From the NCBI GenBank assembly GCA_019694555.1, contig JAIBBS010000017.1, positions 5,826 through 69,825 of the forward strand: a stretch of 64,000 nt of DNA, read 5' to 3'. A program made the position numbers and the translations under genes. The notes beneath the pieces are model-generated. The model was given only the letters and a program-made list of their open reading frames with translations. It was not told the origin of the DNA and ran no database searches. This DNA is from Nannocystaceae bacterium. GTDB lineage: Bacteria; Myxococcota_A; Polyangia; Nannocystales; Nannocystaceae. Positions 43,320 to 54,745 of this stretch are shown here, in pieces (within the stretch, counting starts at the first letter, position 1; each line of letters starts with the position of its first letter).

Positions 43320-43522
43320 ACGACAAGCCCAGCGGTTGCTGCACGCACCGCGGCACGTGCCCGATGTTCGCGCTGTTCGATCGCGGCAACCAACTCGAGT
43401 ACTGGAAAGAGCGCTACTGCGACTCGGAGTTCACCCGCTGCGCGCGGTACCAGAAGATGACCGAGGGCGAGACGCCGCCGGTGCAGCTGCTGCCCAGCGG
43501 CCGCATGCTGCGGCTGGGCTGA
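43307..43522 (+). CDS. small Cys-containing protein (71 aa), unknown function
   Basis: The product is MRIVNDKPSGCCTHRGTCPMFALFDRGNQLEYWKERYCDSEFTRCARYQKMTEGETPPVQLLPSGRMLRLG. Its start lies inside the end of the preceding YeeE gene. Its last 17 codons and stop lie inside the 62-bp direct repeat. Confidence 0.45.
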   Translation: MRIVNDKPSGCCTHRGTCPMFALFDRGNQLEYWKERYCDSEFTRCARYQKMTEGETPPVQLLPSGRMLRLG

Positions 43523-43528
43523 GCGGCG
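43467..43528 (+). repeat. 62-bp direct repeat, left copy (DR-L)
   Basis: gcgagacgccgccggtgcagctgctgcccagcggccgcatgctgcggctgggctgagcggcg is 61/62 identical to 54684..54745. Confidence 0.85.
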
Positions 43529-43579
43529 GACGGTGAACGCCTTCGACGCAACGCCACGGCGCAGCACCGTGCGGTGCAC

Positions 43580-44920
43580 TCACCCGCACGTCGGAGCTGT
43601 GAGTGGCAGCGTGATCACCAGGCGTGCGCCGTGGCCATGGTGCTCATCGAACGCGGCCTTGCCACCGTGTGCCGACGCGATGTGGGCCACGAGCGCGAGT
43701 CCGAGGCCGTGGCCCGGACGATGCCGCGCCGCCTCGCCCCGCCGGAAGGGCTCGAACAACCACGCCTGCTCGGCCAGCGGGACGCCAGGTCCATCATCGA
43801 CGATCTCGACGTCCACGAAGCGGCCCTCCGTTCGCACATGCACGGTCACGGCGCCGGTGGAGTACTTGAGTGCATTGTCCACGGCGTTGTCGAGCATGGC
43901 AGAGAGCAACACCGGGTCACCGCGGACGAGTCCATCGTCGTCGTCATCGACCAGGATCGACAATCGCGCGCGGTCGACCGCGTTTCTGCGCTCGAGCATC
44001 CCGCACGCAACGGCGGCCATCGAGGTCCCCTCGGACGAGCCCATCGCCTCCGCGGGGGTTGCGAGCAGCAGCAATCGCTCGGTCAGCGAGATCAGGTGCG
44101 CGGTGGTGCGAGACAGCCGCTCAAGGCTCTCGCCGGTCTCGAGATCGAGGCCCTCATGCTCGCGCGCGAGCTCGACGTCCGCGCTCAGCTTCGCGAGCGG
44201 GGTACGCAGCTCGTGAGCCGCGTCGGCGGCGAAGCGTCGCGTTCGCGTCAGCTCGACCTCGAGACGCCCGAGCAACTCGGCGATCGCGCCTCGAACCGCA
44301 TCGATCTCCTCGACCGCGGCGGTTGCCGGCAGCTGTGCCGCGAACGGAGCGCGCGAATCGATTCGTGCGACTGCTCGTTGCAAACGCGACAGCGGGCCGA
44401 TCAGTCTGCGTGACTGCGTCGCCCCGACCCACAGCGAACCCGCGAGCACCAGGCCGAGCACGATGGAGGCGGCGACGAGTAGCGGCGTGCGATGACTGAG
44501 CGCGCGCTCGGCGGGCACGCCCACCGCCACCACGAGTGCCGGGTCGAACGTCGCCGGTCGGACGCAGACCAACTCGGGTTCGCGCTCGAGCTCTACGAAA
44601 CCGCACGACTCTTCGCTCGGCGCGCGCAGGCGCTGGTCCCCGCTGCGGGGCTCGCCCCCGTGGAGCACCGCCACGTGTCCGTCGATTCCCAGCTCTGTCG
44701 CCTCCTCCTCGATCTCCGCCACCAGCGCTGGGTTCTCGTCCAGCTCGGCCGCCAGCACCGCGGCCGCCATCGTTGCCGCATGCTCGACGTGTCGGCGGAC
44801 GAGCATGTCGGCCAGCAACACCATCGTCACGAGCGCGAGCGCTGCAACCGTGCTCGCGCCGAGCGTGAGCGTCCACGTCAGTTGTGAAGCGAACGACCGC
44901 GGGCGCTCAGCCAAGTGCAT
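43580..44920 (-). CDS. sensor histidine kinase (heavy-metal sensor type)
   Basis: The ATG at 44920 begins a protein with two TM segments, HAMP-like helices, HisKA (AHELRTPLAKL) and HATPase_c (DNALKYS, DDGPGV, GHGLGL) motifs. Confidence 0.85.
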   Translation of the reverse strand: MHLAERPRSFASQLTWTLTLGASTVAALALVTMVLLADMLVRRHVEHAATMAAAVLAAELDENPALVAEIEEEATELGIDGHVAVLHGGEPRSGDQRLRAPSEESCGFVELEREPELVCVRPATFDPALVVAVGVPAERALSHRTPLLVAASIVLGLVLAGSLWVGATQSRRLIGPLSRLQRAVARIDSRAPFAAQLPATAAVEEIDAVRGAIAELLGRLEVELTRTRRFAADAAHELRTPLAKLSADVELAREHEGLDLETGESLERLSRTTAHLISLTERLLLLATPAEAMGSSEGTSMAAVACGMLERRNAVDRARLSILVDDDDDGLVRGDPVLLSAMLDNAVDNALKYSTGAVTVHVRTEGRFVDVEIVDDGPGVPLAEQAWLFEPFRRGEAARHRPGHGLGLALVAHIASAHGGKAAFDEHHGHGARLVITLPLTAPTCG

Positions 44921-45560
44921 GACCCTTCCCCCGAAGCGTGCGCAAGAGGCTGCGGCCCAGCTTGTGGCGAATCCGTGCGAGCAGGACGCCCAGGGATGCG
45001 TTGGCCGAGTCGCTCGGCGCACCCCAGACGTGCGCGAGCAGCACGTCCCGCGGCACCACGCCCCCGTCTGCGCGCGCGATCGCTTCGAGGATCGCCCACT
45101 CCTTCGCAGTCAATGCGACATCGAGGCCCGCACGCTTGGCTCGTCGAGCGGCGAAATCCAACTCCACGTCACCGCGCGTGCAGCGTGCGACCAGAGGCTG
45201 AGTGCCGCGACGCCCCAAGGCACGCACGCGCGCACGCAGCTCGGCGATGGCGAAGGGTTTCACGAGGTAGTCGTCGGCCCCGGCGTCGAGACCATCGACC
45301 CGGGCGCGCACGTTGCCGGCCGCGGTGAGGATGAGAATCGCGACGCTCGAACCGTCGGCCCGTAGCGCTCGGCACAGATGGAGACCGTCGCCATCGGGCA
45401 AACCCAGGTCGAGGACCACCACGTCGAACGAGGCCTCGAGCAGTGCTTCGCGTGCCATCGTGATCGACGCAGCCGTGCGCGTCGCGTGGCCATCGCGTGC
45501 GAGCGCAGTCCGCAGCAGCGAACAGAGCTCATCATCATCATCCACGATCAGGAGGTTCAT
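44907..45560 (-). CDS. OmpR-family response regulator
   Basis: The receiver domain (LIVDDD...DVVVLDLGLPDGDG) and the winged-helix output domain (LTAKEWAILEAIA, VWG) are both present. It overlaps the HK start by 14 nt. Confidence 0.9.
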   Translation of the reverse strand: MNLLIVDDDDELCSLLRTALARDGHATRTAASITMAREALLEASFDVVVLDLGLPDGDGLHLCRALRADGSSVAILILTAAGNVRARVDGLDAGADDYLVKPFAIAELRARVRALGRRGTQPLVARCTRGDVELDFAARRAKRAGLDVALTAKEWAILEAIARADGGVVPRDVLLAHVWGAPSDSANASLGVLLARIRHKLGRSLLRTLRGKGHALG

Positions 45561-53781: not shown

Positions 53782-54327
53782 TCAGTAGCCCTGACCGCCA
53801 GGGCAGAATGTGGCGTAGAAACGGCCGCGGACCTCCGCGTCGGCGCCTGCGTAGCTCGCTTCCACGGTCCCGACCACCTTCACGCCGGGTTCGCTCTGCG
53901 TGAACGTGACGTGTCCGTCCGTCGCCGCGACCTCGTACGCCGACGACTTCCCGCCCGCGGCGTAGTTGACCTCGGCGCCACCCTCTTCGACGGCGACCGT
54001 GCCCGACGCCCGGGTCGAAGGGACGACGATCTCGATGATCTGGGCGCCGACCGCGACGTCTCCGAGCCAGCGGGAGACCATCAGCTGCGCGCACGTGAGC
54101 GAGACCGAGCTCAGGTAGACGAGGGTCTCGCCGCTGTTCTCGATCATGATCGAGGCGACGGTGGGCTCGATCTCTCCGAGATCGCCGAGTTCCCCCATCA
54201 GGAGCGTCTCGGTGTCTCCGTAGTCCTGTTGGTCCGGGCTGCGGTCGCACGCGGTCAACGAGGTGATCCACGCGGTCGCCCCGTACAGGAGCGACCAGCG
54301 AGCCCGGGGCGCGAGTCGAGCCGTCAT
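53782..54327 (-). CDS. lipoprotein, hypothetical (181 aa)
   Basis: MTARLAPRARWSLLYGATAWITSLTAC is a lipobox. The domain is acidic and Thr/Val-rich. Confidence 0.5.
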   Translation of the reverse strand: MTARLAPRARWSLLYGATAWITSLTACDRSPDQQDYGDTETLLMGELGDLGEIEPTVASIMIENSGETLVYLSSVSLTCAQLMVSRWLGDVAVGAQIIEIVVPSTRASGTVAVEEGGAEVNYAAGGKSSAYEVAATDGHVTFTQSEPGVKVVGTVEASYAGADAEVRGRFYATFCPGGQGY

Positions 54328-54490
54328 TGCGTGTTAGGGCTCGTGCTTCGCCCTGCGTTACGGCGTCGCGCGGCAACCCACCGATCCGTTCGGCTCCCGT
54401 TCGCTTCGTTGGCACGGAGCGAGGGGTTCTCCGGGATCCCTGCGCTCCGGGATCGATCCACGAGTCGCAATACCGGACCGGCGAGGCACT

Positions 54491-54663
54491 CGCGTCGAGC
54501 GCGAGGGCGTCGTCGTCGAGCCCTTCGAGGAGGTCGCGCTCCGCTGCAGGGCGAGGCCGGGGCTGCAAGCACGGCGCGCGAGGGTTCGAGGCGCTCGGCA
54601 TCGCCGAGGTCGCGCTCGACCGCGTGGTCGACGGTCCGCGCCGCGGCCGTGCTCGCCACGCGC
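54491..54663 (+). pseudogene. frameshifted fragment copying the 3' end of the M48 peptidase gene (compare 56323..56493)
   Basis: About 90% nucleotide identity over about 173 bp to the 3' end of the gene at 54930..56525. There is a 1-nt deletion (gcgctccgctgcag vs gcgctcgcgctgcag). The fragment is not in any long ORF and is followed directly by DR-R. Confidence 0.6.
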
Positions 54664-54683
54664 GACGACCCGAACGTCACGCC

Positions 54684-54745
54684 GCGAGACACCGCCGGTG
54701 CAGCTGCTGCCCAGCGGCCGCATGCTGCGGCTGGGCTGAGCGGCG
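54684..54745 (+). repeat. 62-bp direct repeat, right copy (DR-R)
   Basis: 61/62 identical to 43467..43528 (one synonymous-position G/A difference). It carries the last 17 codons and stop of the small Cys protein gene but has no upstream gene body. Confidence 0.85.

What the first reader, a model, noticed from the sequence alone, without database searches (positions are those of the whole stretch)
43467..54745. 62-bp direct repeats (3' end of a small Cys-protein gene) bracket an 11.2-kb two-component / RND metal-efflux / cytochrome module; the right junction also carries a fragment of the M48 peptidase gene
The 62-bp repeats at 43467..43528 and 54684..54745 are 61/62 identical. The left copy is the genuine 3' end of the 71-aa Cys-protein gene (43307..43522): its last 17 codons, the TGA and 6 nt beyond. 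The right copy has no gene body upstream. Instead it is preceded directly by a frameshifted, about 90%-identical copy (54491..54663) of the 3' end of the M48 peptidase gene that lies 270 bp further right.

Between the repeats lie, all on the minus strand:
- a histidine kinase and response regulator;
- a CusA/CzcA-type RND pump, membrane fusion protein and outer-membrane component;
- three CxxCH cytochromes;
- a lipoprotein.

Duplication of a gene's 3' end as flanking direct repeats is the classic footprint of site-specific integration (attL/attR). No integrase is visible in the window, though. The composite junction (M48 3' end fused to Cys-protein 3' end) shows that at least one further duplication and deletion event shaped this locus.

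Either way the metal-efflux module looks like an acquired or rearranged accessory island, not ancestral core DNA.
Basis: seen in the sequence. Interest (0 to 1): 0.65.

Follow-up and report, generated by a model that had tools for sequence, protein, structure and literature searches.

The report
Acquired efflux island, duplicated gene ends
One myxobacterial species has gained an 11-kb block of efflux-pump (probably metal-exporting) and cytochrome genes between two neighbouring genes, and the short repeats at its edges look like scars of imprecise recombination, not the footprint of an integration enzyme, so this is an ordinary accessory island.

Summary
A 62-nt direct repeat (61/62 identical) lies at 43467-43528 and 54684-54745. 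The right copy is preceded, after an 11-nt filler, by a decayed copy (54477-54672) of the 3' end of the neighbouring M48 gene.

The window comes from a Nannocystaceae MAG. In the sister species (85-91% nt identity; two MAGs plus seven metagenome contigs), the Cys-protein gene is followed after 19 nt by the convergent lipoprotein gene at 56542. The whole 13 kb (island, both fragments and M48) is missing there. One Logan contig of the window's own species (L006) shows Cys followed directly by M48. This is the predicted empty site, but a de Bruijn chimera is not excluded.

Island genes have lower GC3 than all 16 left-flank genes. Their nearest relatives are only 74-85% identical and sit at unrelated loci. 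So "acquired accessory island" is supported.

"attL/attR of an integrase" is not. The window has no integrase, transposase or tRNA. The repeat has no unusual dyad symmetry. M48's nearest database relative is only 47% identical, so the fragment is a local copy. The permuted M48-3'/Cys-3' junction fits illegitimate recombination best: tandem duplication, or 3'-end displacement. Interest is low.

The parts
42295..43319 (+). Split YeeE/YedE-like sulfur-transport pair (42295-42915 and 42912-43319). This is the conserved left flank.
   Evidence: Pfam Sulf_transp. Gene calls on L002 and L029. Syntenic with the sister species as far as 43531.
43307..43522 (+). 71-aa Cys-rich protein gene. It is intact and overlaps the stop of the second YeeE gene.
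   Evidence: Translation. It is conserved as a protein even in a lineage with only 71% nt identity. It is an orphan family: one 90% cluster of 6 members.
43467..43528 (+). Left copy of the 62-nt direct repeat (R_L): the last 17 codons of the Cys gene, the TGA and 6 nt beyond.
43529..54476 (-). Cargo of the island: a nine-gene minus-strand operon-like block.
   Evidence: Absent from the sister species. GC3 is 0.74-0.885 against 0.90-0.946 in 16 left-flank genes.
43580..45560 (-). Two-component system: histidine kinase 43580-44920 and OmpR-type response regulator 44907-45560.
   Evidence: Pfam HisKA/HATPase_c and Response_reg/Trans_reg_C. The best NCBIfam hits include the heavy-metal sensor and regulator families, but they score below the curated cut-offs.
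45557..51266 (-). RND efflux pump: permease 45557-48634, periplasmic adaptor 48631-49806, outer-membrane factor 49803-51266.
   Evidence: Pfam ACR_tran 2e-207, HlyD_3 and OEP. The best NCBIfam hit is CusA/CzcA TIGR00914 at 540.6 bits, below its cut-off of 701. The five-gene operon is conserved at other loci in GCA_016709225.1 (RND 74%) and in Paraliomyxa (66%).
51263..54327 (-). Four-gene cytochrome/lipoprotein cluster: SO2930-family cytochrome-like protein 51263-52285, 149-aa CxxCH protein 52341-52790, two-CxxCH cytochrome c 52775-53746, lipoprotein-like 53782-54327.
   Evidence: CxxCH counts. TIGR03806. Pfam Cytochrom_C. The same four genes in the same order occur in seven JGI metagenome loci, and three of them in five more, at 42-85% aa identity.
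54477..54672 (+). M48' : a decayed, frameshifted copy of nt 56307-56503 of the neighbouring M48 gene.
   Evidence: 10 mismatches and 5 single-base indels. Present with the same indels in L017.
54673..54683 (.). 11-nt filler (AACGTCACGCC) between M48' and the right repeat. It matches neither parent sequence.
54684..54745 (+). Right copy of the 62-nt repeat (R_R): an orphaned Cys-gene 3' end with no gene body.
54746..56540 (+). M48 cassette: a 184-nt leader plus the M48 metallopeptidase gene 54930-56525. It is also absent from the sister species.
   Evidence: Pfam Peptidase_M48. The nearest non-self homologue is 47% identical. Sister-species homology resumes only at 56541.
56307..56503 (+). Source segment of M48' inside the intact M48 gene. 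It ends 22 nt before the end of the ORF.
56542..57540 (-). Convergent lipoprotein gene with an (SGGE)n repeat. This is the conserved right flank, and in the sister species it is the direct neighbour of the Cys gene.

Best explanation
The locus between the convergent Cys-protein gene and the lipoprotein gene is a lineage-specific insertion spot. It has received two unrelated pieces of DNA: a 1.8-kb M48 peptidase cassette and an 11-kb cargo block.

The cargo block fuses two modules that are each conserved on their own elsewhere. One is a four-gene c-type cytochrome/lipoprotein cluster. The other is a five-gene RND efflux plus two-component operon. It probably provides regulated export of a metal or other envelope stressor; that function is inferred from family hits only.

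The 62-nt repeat and the adjacent M48 fragment are not recombinase attachment sites. They are orphaned copies of two local gene ends, joined in permuted order (M48 3' end, 11-nt filler, Cys 3' end) by one illegitimate recombination event. Two equally parsimonious routes give this structure:
(a) A 1.8-kb tandem duplication spanning the Cys 3' end to the M48 3' end, followed by the cargo replacing the interior of the proximal copy.
(b) Homology-facilitated illegitimate recombination between an island-bearing strain with a truncated M48 and an island-free strain. This shifts the resident Cys 3' end downstream, a "3'-end displacement".

Either way the Cys gene stays intact and M48 stays intact. 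The 54-nt exact identity between the repeats then allows occasional RecA-type deletion of the island, which regenerates Cys-M48.

Shown: the three locus states, the junction anatomy, the local origin of both fragments, the compositional shift, and the absence of mobility genes. Inferred: the order of events, the enzymology and the physiological role.
For: 1. Sister species. Two MAG contigs of 114 kb and 90 kb plus seven metagenome contigs, 97.8-99.9% identical to each other, are collinear with the window up to 43531 and again from 56541. Only 19 nt lie between the Cys TGA and the lipoprotein gene's stop.
2. Empty site. L006, 99.7% identical to the window, joins the intact Cys gene directly to the leader and M48.
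3. Local origin. M48's next-best homologue among 5.8 billion proteins is 47% identical. So the 92%-identical fragment at 54477-54672 must be a local copy. It ends 11 nt from the start of the right repeat. One junction therefore explains both duplications.
4. No mobility genes. No integrase, transposase or tRNA in 64 kb. No terminal inverted repeats or other direct repeats at the island ends.
5. Composition. Every island gene has a lower GC3 than every one of 16 left-flank genes (Mann-Whitney p = 5e-5).
6. Relatives of the cargo. The RND permease's best non-self hit is 74% identical, at an unrelated locus without cytochromes. The cytochrome cluster is conserved separately at 42-85% aa identity.
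7. Assembly support. Independent assemblies confirm all junction segments except the A-allele repeat joined to the leader. k=31 contigs break exactly at the repeat edges.
8. Precedent. [quoted passage not shown]
Against: - No intermediate has been observed: neither a pure tandem duplication nor an island-bearing strain with a truncated M48.
- M48' is more diverged than the repeat: 15 differences in 196 nt against 1 in 62 (Fisher p = 0.08). Under a single in-situ duplication this needs faster decay, or gene conversion, in M48'.
- The three bases after the left repeat (GAC) match the sister species, while those after the right repeat do not. This hints weakly that the left copy is the ancestral one, which fits route (b) less well.
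- Duplication of a gene's 3' end that restores the ORF, together with a precise empty site, is also exactly what an integrase would give.
- The rest of the genome could not be searched for a trans-acting recombinase.
- L006 is a single 1.7-kb k=31 contig. The exact shared core (54 nt) is longer than k, so it could be a graph chimera.
Confidence: 0.6

Rival explanations
1. Site-specific integration. The 62-nt repeats are attL and attR of an integrase-less, cis-mobilizable island. It was inserted into the 3' end of the Cys gene by a tyrosine or serine recombinase encoded elsewhere in the genome. The M48 cassette would be an earlier or later arrival at the same att site (accretion).
For: - The direct repeat restores the target ORF.
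- The empty-site contig lacks exactly one repeat plus the intervening DNA.
- Two unrelated inserts sit at the same spot relative to the sister species.
- A weak 16-nt similarity, GGCGCGCGCTGAYGCG, occurs at 54742-54757 and 56514-56529. It could be a decayed third site bracketing the M48 cassette (1.7% of shuffles score as well).
Against: - No recombinase in the island or the window.
- The arm next to the right repeat is a copy of a local gene, not foreign DNA.
- An 11-nt filler lies at that edge.
- The 11-6-11 dyad inside the repeat occurs about 1.2 times per kb in this window, and the fold z-score is -0.9.
- No second copy of the Cys 3' end within 10 kb in the L035/L036 lineage or in L029.
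- Among 185,579 species-representative genomes the exact core occurs only once, at the orthologous Cys gene.
Confidence: 0.12
2. The 13 kb is ancestral and was precisely deleted in the sister species. On this view the island is old core DNA of the genus, not an acquisition.
For: Synteny alone cannot polarise the difference. The only outgroup lineage found (L035-37, 71-75% nt identity) has other genes after Cys and lacks the lipoprotein neighbour.
Against: - Island GC3 is lower than in all 16 left-flank genes tested.
- No orthologue of the RND permease above 74% or of M48 above 47% exists anywhere in the database. Flanking genes, by contrast, are about 88% identical at the DNA level between the two species.
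- A deletion would have had to leave two convergent ORFs intact with a 19-nt spacer.
- The segment contains duplicated local gene ends, which is typical of insertion or rearrangement.
Confidence: 0.07
3. Assembly artefact. The MAG contig is a chimera joined at the repeat, or the repeat is a collapsed or duplicated assembly error.
For: The junction from the A-allele right repeat into the M48 leader is seen only in the window itself. The source is a metagenome-assembled genome.
Against: - The left junction is seen in at least 11 contigs from several samples, including k141 MEGAHIT assemblies.
- L017 independently carries M48', the filler and the A-allele repeat.
- L057 carries the M48 tail joined to the lipoprotein gene.
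- k=31 contigs stop exactly at the repeat borders from both sides, which requires two contexts for the repeat in those samples.
Confidence: 0.03

Closest known systems
Integrase-borne genomic islands (ICE, IME, prophage) and their integrase-less derivatives (cis-mobilizable elements), inserted in the 3' end of a gene and flanked by attL/attR direct repeats. This comparison rests on my own knowledge; ICEberg 2.0 (PMC6323972) turned up in the search but was not opened.
   Same: Direct repeats made of the target gene's 3' end. The ORF is restored. An empty site exists in a relative. The composition is shifted. The cargo is an accessory resistance-type operon.
   Different: No recombinase. No foreign arm next to the right repeat, which is a copy of the neighbouring gene plus filler. 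The repeat is not found with other cargo. No third clear site.
3'-end (C-terminal) displacement arrays at Rhs and T6SS effector-immunity loci, proposed to arise by homology-facilitated illegitimate recombination (Kirchberger et al. 2017, PMC5361080; HFIR as in de Vries & Wackernagel 2002, cited there).
   Same: Incoming DNA is anchored in a conserved upstream gene. The resident 3' end is shifted downstream and remains as an orphan fragment. No integrase is involved. The junctions are illegitimate.
   Different: The gene here is a small Cys-rich protein, not a polymorphic toxin. Only one orphan is present, not an array. A fragment of the downstream gene is also involved.
Tandem duplication with a permuted novel junction (distal end joined to proximal start). 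This is general knowledge.
   Same: The M48 3' end is joined to the Cys 3' end in the same orientation. Both are copies of sequences 1.8 kb apart in the island-free arrangement. There is short filler at the join.
   Different: The interior of the proximal copy is not present. It is occupied by 11 kb of foreign genes, so a second event is required.
CzcCBA/CusCBA-type heavy-metal RND efflux operons with CzcRS/CusRS-type two-component regulators.
   Same: A three-part RND pump with an adjacent OmpR-type regulator and sensor kinase. The best NCBIfam hit of the permease is CusA/CzcA.
   Different: All the heavy-metal family scores are below NCBI's curated cut-offs. The operon is fused to a cytochrome cluster. 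The substrate is unknown.

Membership tests
Integrase-mediated genomic island (attL/attR) | Flanking direct repeats that include the target gene's 3' end and restore the ORF | tested here: met
   61/62 identity between 43467-43528 and 54684-54745. The Cys ORF is intact.
Integrase-mediated genomic island (attL/attR) | A tyrosine or serine recombinase gene inside the element, usually next to one att site | tested here: not met
   Pfam and NCBIfam scans of all nine island genes, and of the other sizeable ORFs of the 64 kb, show no integrase, resolvase or transposase domain.
Integrase-mediated genomic island (attL/attR) | The arms next to the repeats on the element side are foreign (attP arms) | tested here: not met
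   The arm left of the right repeat is a 92% copy of the adjacent M48 gene's 3' end plus an 11-nt filler. M48's nearest database relative is only 47% identical.
Integrase-mediated genomic island (attL/attR) | An unoccupied site with a single repeat copy in related genomes | tested here: inconclusive
   L006 shows it, but it is one 1.7-kb k=31 contig and the exact core is 54 nt. The sister species has one copy but also lacks M48.
Cis-mobilizable element acted on in trans | A cognate recombinase or related integrative element elsewhere in the genome, or the same att site with other cargo | not testable with these tools
   Only 64 kb of the MAG is available. The exact core occurs once in 185,579 representative genomes, at the orthologous Cys gene, and not at all in the JGI metagenome contigs.
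Transposon or IS-bounded composite | Terminal inverted repeats, a short target-site duplication, and a transposase | tested here: not met
   Local alignment of the island ends is no better than shuffles. No transposase domain was found.
Xer/dif-type module | A 28-bp site of 11-6-11 architecture that stands out from background | tested here: not met
   An 11-6-11 dyad with 9/11 matches starts at 43492, but 78 such dyads occur in the window (1.2 per kb). The DNA fold z-score is -0.9. No comparison with a real myxobacterial dif site was possible.
Tandem duplication or 3'-end displacement by illegitimate recombination | A novel junction that joins a distal local sequence to a proximal local sequence in the same orientation, with microhomology or filler | tested here: met
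   56503-equivalent, 11-nt filler, then 43467-equivalent; both on the + strand.
Tandem duplication or 3'-end displacement by illegitimate recombination | Existence of the intermediate (a pure duplication, or an island-bearing strain with truncated M48) | tested here: inconclusive
   Neither was seen among the contigs retrieved. Sampling is shallow and the contigs are short.
HME-RND (CusA/CzcA) efflux system | Permease scores above the family's curated cut-off | tested here: not met
   TIGR00914 is the best hit at 540.6 bits, against a cut-off of 701.45. The general RND family (Pfam ACR_tran, 2e-207) is met.
HME-RND (CusA/CzcA) efflux system | Adaptor and outer-membrane factor encoded alongside | tested here: met
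   HlyD_3/HlyD_D23 and OEP domains, with overlapping stop and start codons.

The most novel reading that the evidence does not exclude
The 3' end of the small Cys-protein gene is a genuine attachment site used by a recombinase encoded elsewhere. Integrase-less cassettes (first M48, then the efflux/cytochrome block) accrete there one after another. That would be a chromosomal cassette-capture site in Nannocystaceae, comparable in logic to cis-mobilizable elements or dif modules.
Probability: 0.1. Interest if true: 0.5.

Novelty: new member of a known kind. Interest (0 to 1): 0.22.

Why it matters
It documents three states of one chromosomal spot in uncultured Nannocystaceae: empty, M48 only (one contig, provisional), and M48 plus island. 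It also cautions that a duplicated gene 3' end flanking an island is not by itself evidence for an integrase. Here the neighbouring fragment shows the repeat is a by-product of illegitimate recombination.

For annotation, the 11 kb should be flagged as strain-variable accessory DNA, and 54477-54745 as pseudogene debris. Beyond that the finding is an ordinary accessory efflux island and opens no new question.

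Tried and rejected
- Dyad symmetry or a dif-like 11-6-11 site inside the repeat: present, but no more than background.
- Terminal inverted or direct repeats at the ends of the 11-kb or the 13-kb insert: none above shuffles.
- A clear third copy of the repeat downstream of M48: only a 16-nt GC-rich similarity, which 1.7% of mononucleotide shuffles match or beat.
- Remnants of the leader or of the M48 5' part at the island ends: none.
- A second copy of the Cys 3' end in the other lineages (L035, L036, L029): none.
- Tracing M48' to a foreign allele: impossible, because no M48 relative above 47% exists. 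The codon-position pattern of the 10 substitutions (6 at third positions, 5 synonymous) is not decisive.
- Divergence test of M48' against the repeat: p = 0.08, not decisive.
- Exact look-ups of the M48 protein: not on record. So no further contigs across the right junction could be retrieved.
- JGI metagenome scan for the repeat core: 0 hits.
- An apparent novel junction in L021 is Illumina adapter.
- An M48 gene next to the closest efflux operon (L024) is an unrelated 290-aa protein on the HK side. tblastn found no similarity to the window's M48.
- Whether the island is present in sample SRR3501855, the source of L006, could not be checked. The look-up tool lists only the ten largest contigs.

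Full report
**Observation.**
The window has 71.8% G+C. The 62-nt direct repeat is real: 43467-43528 and 54684-54745 differ at one base, G43474 versus A54691 (family D5). A degenerate 55-nt core allowing three mismatches hits only these two places in the window. None appears in 100 dinucleotide-preserving shuffles.

The left copy is the end of an intact 71-codon ORF. The right copy has no ORF upstream. Left of the right copy, after an 11-nt filler, 54477-54672 aligns with 56307-56503. That is the 3' end of the M48 peptidase gene, 54930-56525. The alignment has 10 mismatches and 5 single-base indels.

- a sensor kinase and an OmpR-type regulator
- an RND permease, an adaptor and an outer-membrane factor
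- three CxxCH proteins
- a lipoprotein-like ORF

All are on the minus strand, with overlapping or closely spaced stops and starts.

**Source and independent assemblies.**
The M48 and Cys proteins are identical to proteins of an NCBI MAG named Nannocystaceae bacterium, on a contig of 69,825 bp. Exact look-ups gave many short metagenome contigs of the same population, 99.7-100% identical.
- They confirm the Cys-to-kinase junction in at least eleven contigs, including seven k141 MEGAHIT contigs.
- L017 confirms the path lipoprotein-like gene, M48 fragment, filler, A-allele repeat.
- L057 confirms the M48 tail joined to the convergent lipoprotein gene.
- Four Logan contigs coming from the kinase side end at 43499, exactly 30 nt into the repeat. 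L017 ends at 54721, exactly 30 nt past the A SNP. These are k=31 de Bruijn branch points and show that the repeat has two contexts in those samples.

A misassembly is therefore unlikely.

**Three states of the locus.**
It lies in MAG STL-MYX3, another Nannocystaceae bacterium. That contig (L023) is collinear with the window over 36824-43531 at 87-89% identity and then continues at 56541. A second MAG (L029, GCA_964505145.1) and contigs L011, L012 and L030-L034 show the same arrangement. All of these are 97.8-99.9% identical to each other, so they count as one sister species.

In that species the Cys TGA is followed by 19 nt and then by the stop of the convergent lipoprotein gene. The sister species therefore lacks 43532-56540, which is 13.0 kb: the island, both fragments, and also M48.

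Within the window's own species, Logan contig L006 (1,692 bp, sample SRR3501855) runs from the YeeE gene through the complete Cys gene straight into the leader and M48. It is 99.7% identical on both sides.

I treat L006 as probable, not proven. The exact shared core (54 nt) is longer than Logan's k of 31. In its favour, the four Logan contigs of another project that pass through the repeat all take the correct path. That argues against random chimeras.

**Is the island foreign?**
- All nine island genes have GC3 of 0.74-0.885. All 16 tested genes of the left flank have 0.90-0.946 (Mann-Whitney p = 5e-5).
- The RND permease's best non-self hit is 74% identical. It lies in a 3.5-Mb MAG contig where the five-gene operon (outer-membrane factor, adaptor, permease, regulator, kinase) sits at an unrelated locus without cytochromes. 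Paraliomyxa has it at 66%, again elsewhere.
- The four cytochrome/lipoprotein genes form their own conserved cluster. Seven JGI metagenome loci carry all four in the same order, and five more carry three of them, at 42-85% aa identity. Several of these loci have regulator, kinase or RND genes nearby.
- The sister species, about 88% identical in the flanks, has no orthologue-level copy of either module, nor of M48, whose next-best hit is 47%.

Acquisition in the window's lineage is the simplest reading. Synteny alone cannot exclude a deletion in the sister species, because the only outgroup found has different neighbours.

**How did it get there?**
The att reading predicts three things: a recombinase, foreign arms beside the repeats, and probably reuse of the site.
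- No integrase, transposase or tRNA is present in the window.
- The island ends have no inverted or direct repeats.
- The dyad inside the repeat is at background frequency.
- No second copy of the Cys 3' end occurs in the other lineages.

The decisive point is the arm beside the right repeat. It is a copy of the neighbouring M48 gene, a gene with no relative above 47% identity in the protein database searched. So the fragment was copied locally, and it ends 11 nt from the repeat. The order is M48 3' end followed by Cys 3' end, whereas on the island-free chromosome Cys precedes M48 by 1.8 kb. This permuted, same-orientation junction with filler is what an illegitimate join produces.

Two routes need the same number of events:
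- A 1.8-kb tandem duplication from the Cys 3' end to the M48 3' end, followed by replacement of the interior of the proximal copy by the cargo.
- Homology-facilitated illegitimate recombination between an island-bearing strain with a truncated M48 and an island-free strain. This leaves the resident Cys 3' end as a displaced orphan. A similar mechanism has been proposed for the orphaned 3' regions in Rhs and T6SS arrays (PMC5361080).

I cannot choose between the two. The higher divergence of the M48 fragment (15 differences in 196 nt against 1 in 62; p = 0.08) leans toward the second route, or toward fast decay. The GAC after the left repeat, shared with the sister species, is weak evidence that the left copy is the original one. 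Either way, the 54-nt identity is enough for occasional homologous deletion, which would give L006.

**What it does.**
By inference from family hits only, the block encodes a regulated tripartite RND exporter. Its best family match is CusA/CzcA, but the score is below the curated cut-off. It is fused to a periplasmic c-type cytochrome/lipoprotein cluster of unknown role. The recurrent proximity of that cluster to two-component and RND genes in other metagenome loci suggests a functional link. Nothing was tested.

**Verdict.**
"Accessory, rearranged island" is supported. "attL/attR" is not supported. This is a new example of a known kind of event. Interest is low.

Noticed in passing
window 33584-36163 (-): An 859-aa ORF with major-vault-protein domains (Pfam MVP_shoulder 1.7e-26, Vault_3 6.9e-11). 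The sister-species contig L029 has the same gene. A bacterial vault-protein homologue may deserve its own look.
   Followed up: no
window 43307-43522 (+), with 42295-43319: The 71-aa Cys-rich protein overlaps the stop of a split YeeE/YedE pair. It is conserved down to a lineage with 71% nt identity. It has no Pfam or NCBIfam hit, and only one 90% cluster (6 members) among 5.8 billion proteins. It may be a lineage-specific partner of the sulfur transporter.
   Followed up: partly
window 51263-54327 (-); loci L040-L052: The four-gene cytochrome/lipoprotein cluster is conserved elsewhere. All four genes occur in the same order in seven JGI metagenome loci, and three of them in five more (42-85% aa identity; the two-CxxCH cytochrome reaches 85%). 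Several of these loci have response-regulator, kinase or RND genes nearby. In L041 it lies divergent to an RND/two-component operon.
   Followed up: partly
window 54477-54721 versus L017: The M48 fragment is a polymorphism hot spot. There are 3 SNPs in 245 nt between the window and L017, against 1 in the remaining 4,031 nt. At two of the three, the window allele equals the functional M48 sequence, which suggests gene conversion between the copies.
   Followed up: partly
window 54477-54672: The fragment is unusually rich in indels: 5 single-base indels against 10 substitutions in 196 nt. This is more than ordinary pseudogene decay would suggest. Error-prone repair synthesis is one possible cause.
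   Followed up: no
window 54742-54757 and 56514-56529: A 16-nt imperfect direct repeat, GGCGCGCGCTGAYGCG (15/16), brackets the leader plus M48 cassette and includes the M48 stop codon. 1.7% of mononucleotide shuffles score as well. It could be chance in GC-rich DNA, or a scar of the earlier M48 insertion.
   Followed up: partly
window 56542-57540 (-); L011, L023: The convergent lipoprotein gene carries an (SGGE)n tandem repeat whose length differs between the two species.
   Followed up: no
L024 6674-7105 and 15071-15943: Two genes near the closest relative of the efflux operon stand out. One is a CoA-binding protein gene whose product is 60% identical to the N-terminal part of the window ORF 57667-58608. 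The other is an unrelated 290-aa M48 peptidase convergent with the kinase gene. Both are probably coincidence.
   Followed up: no
L021 (both ends): This Logan contig carries Illumina adapter sequence at both ends. That mimicked a novel junction at 54479.
   Followed up: yes
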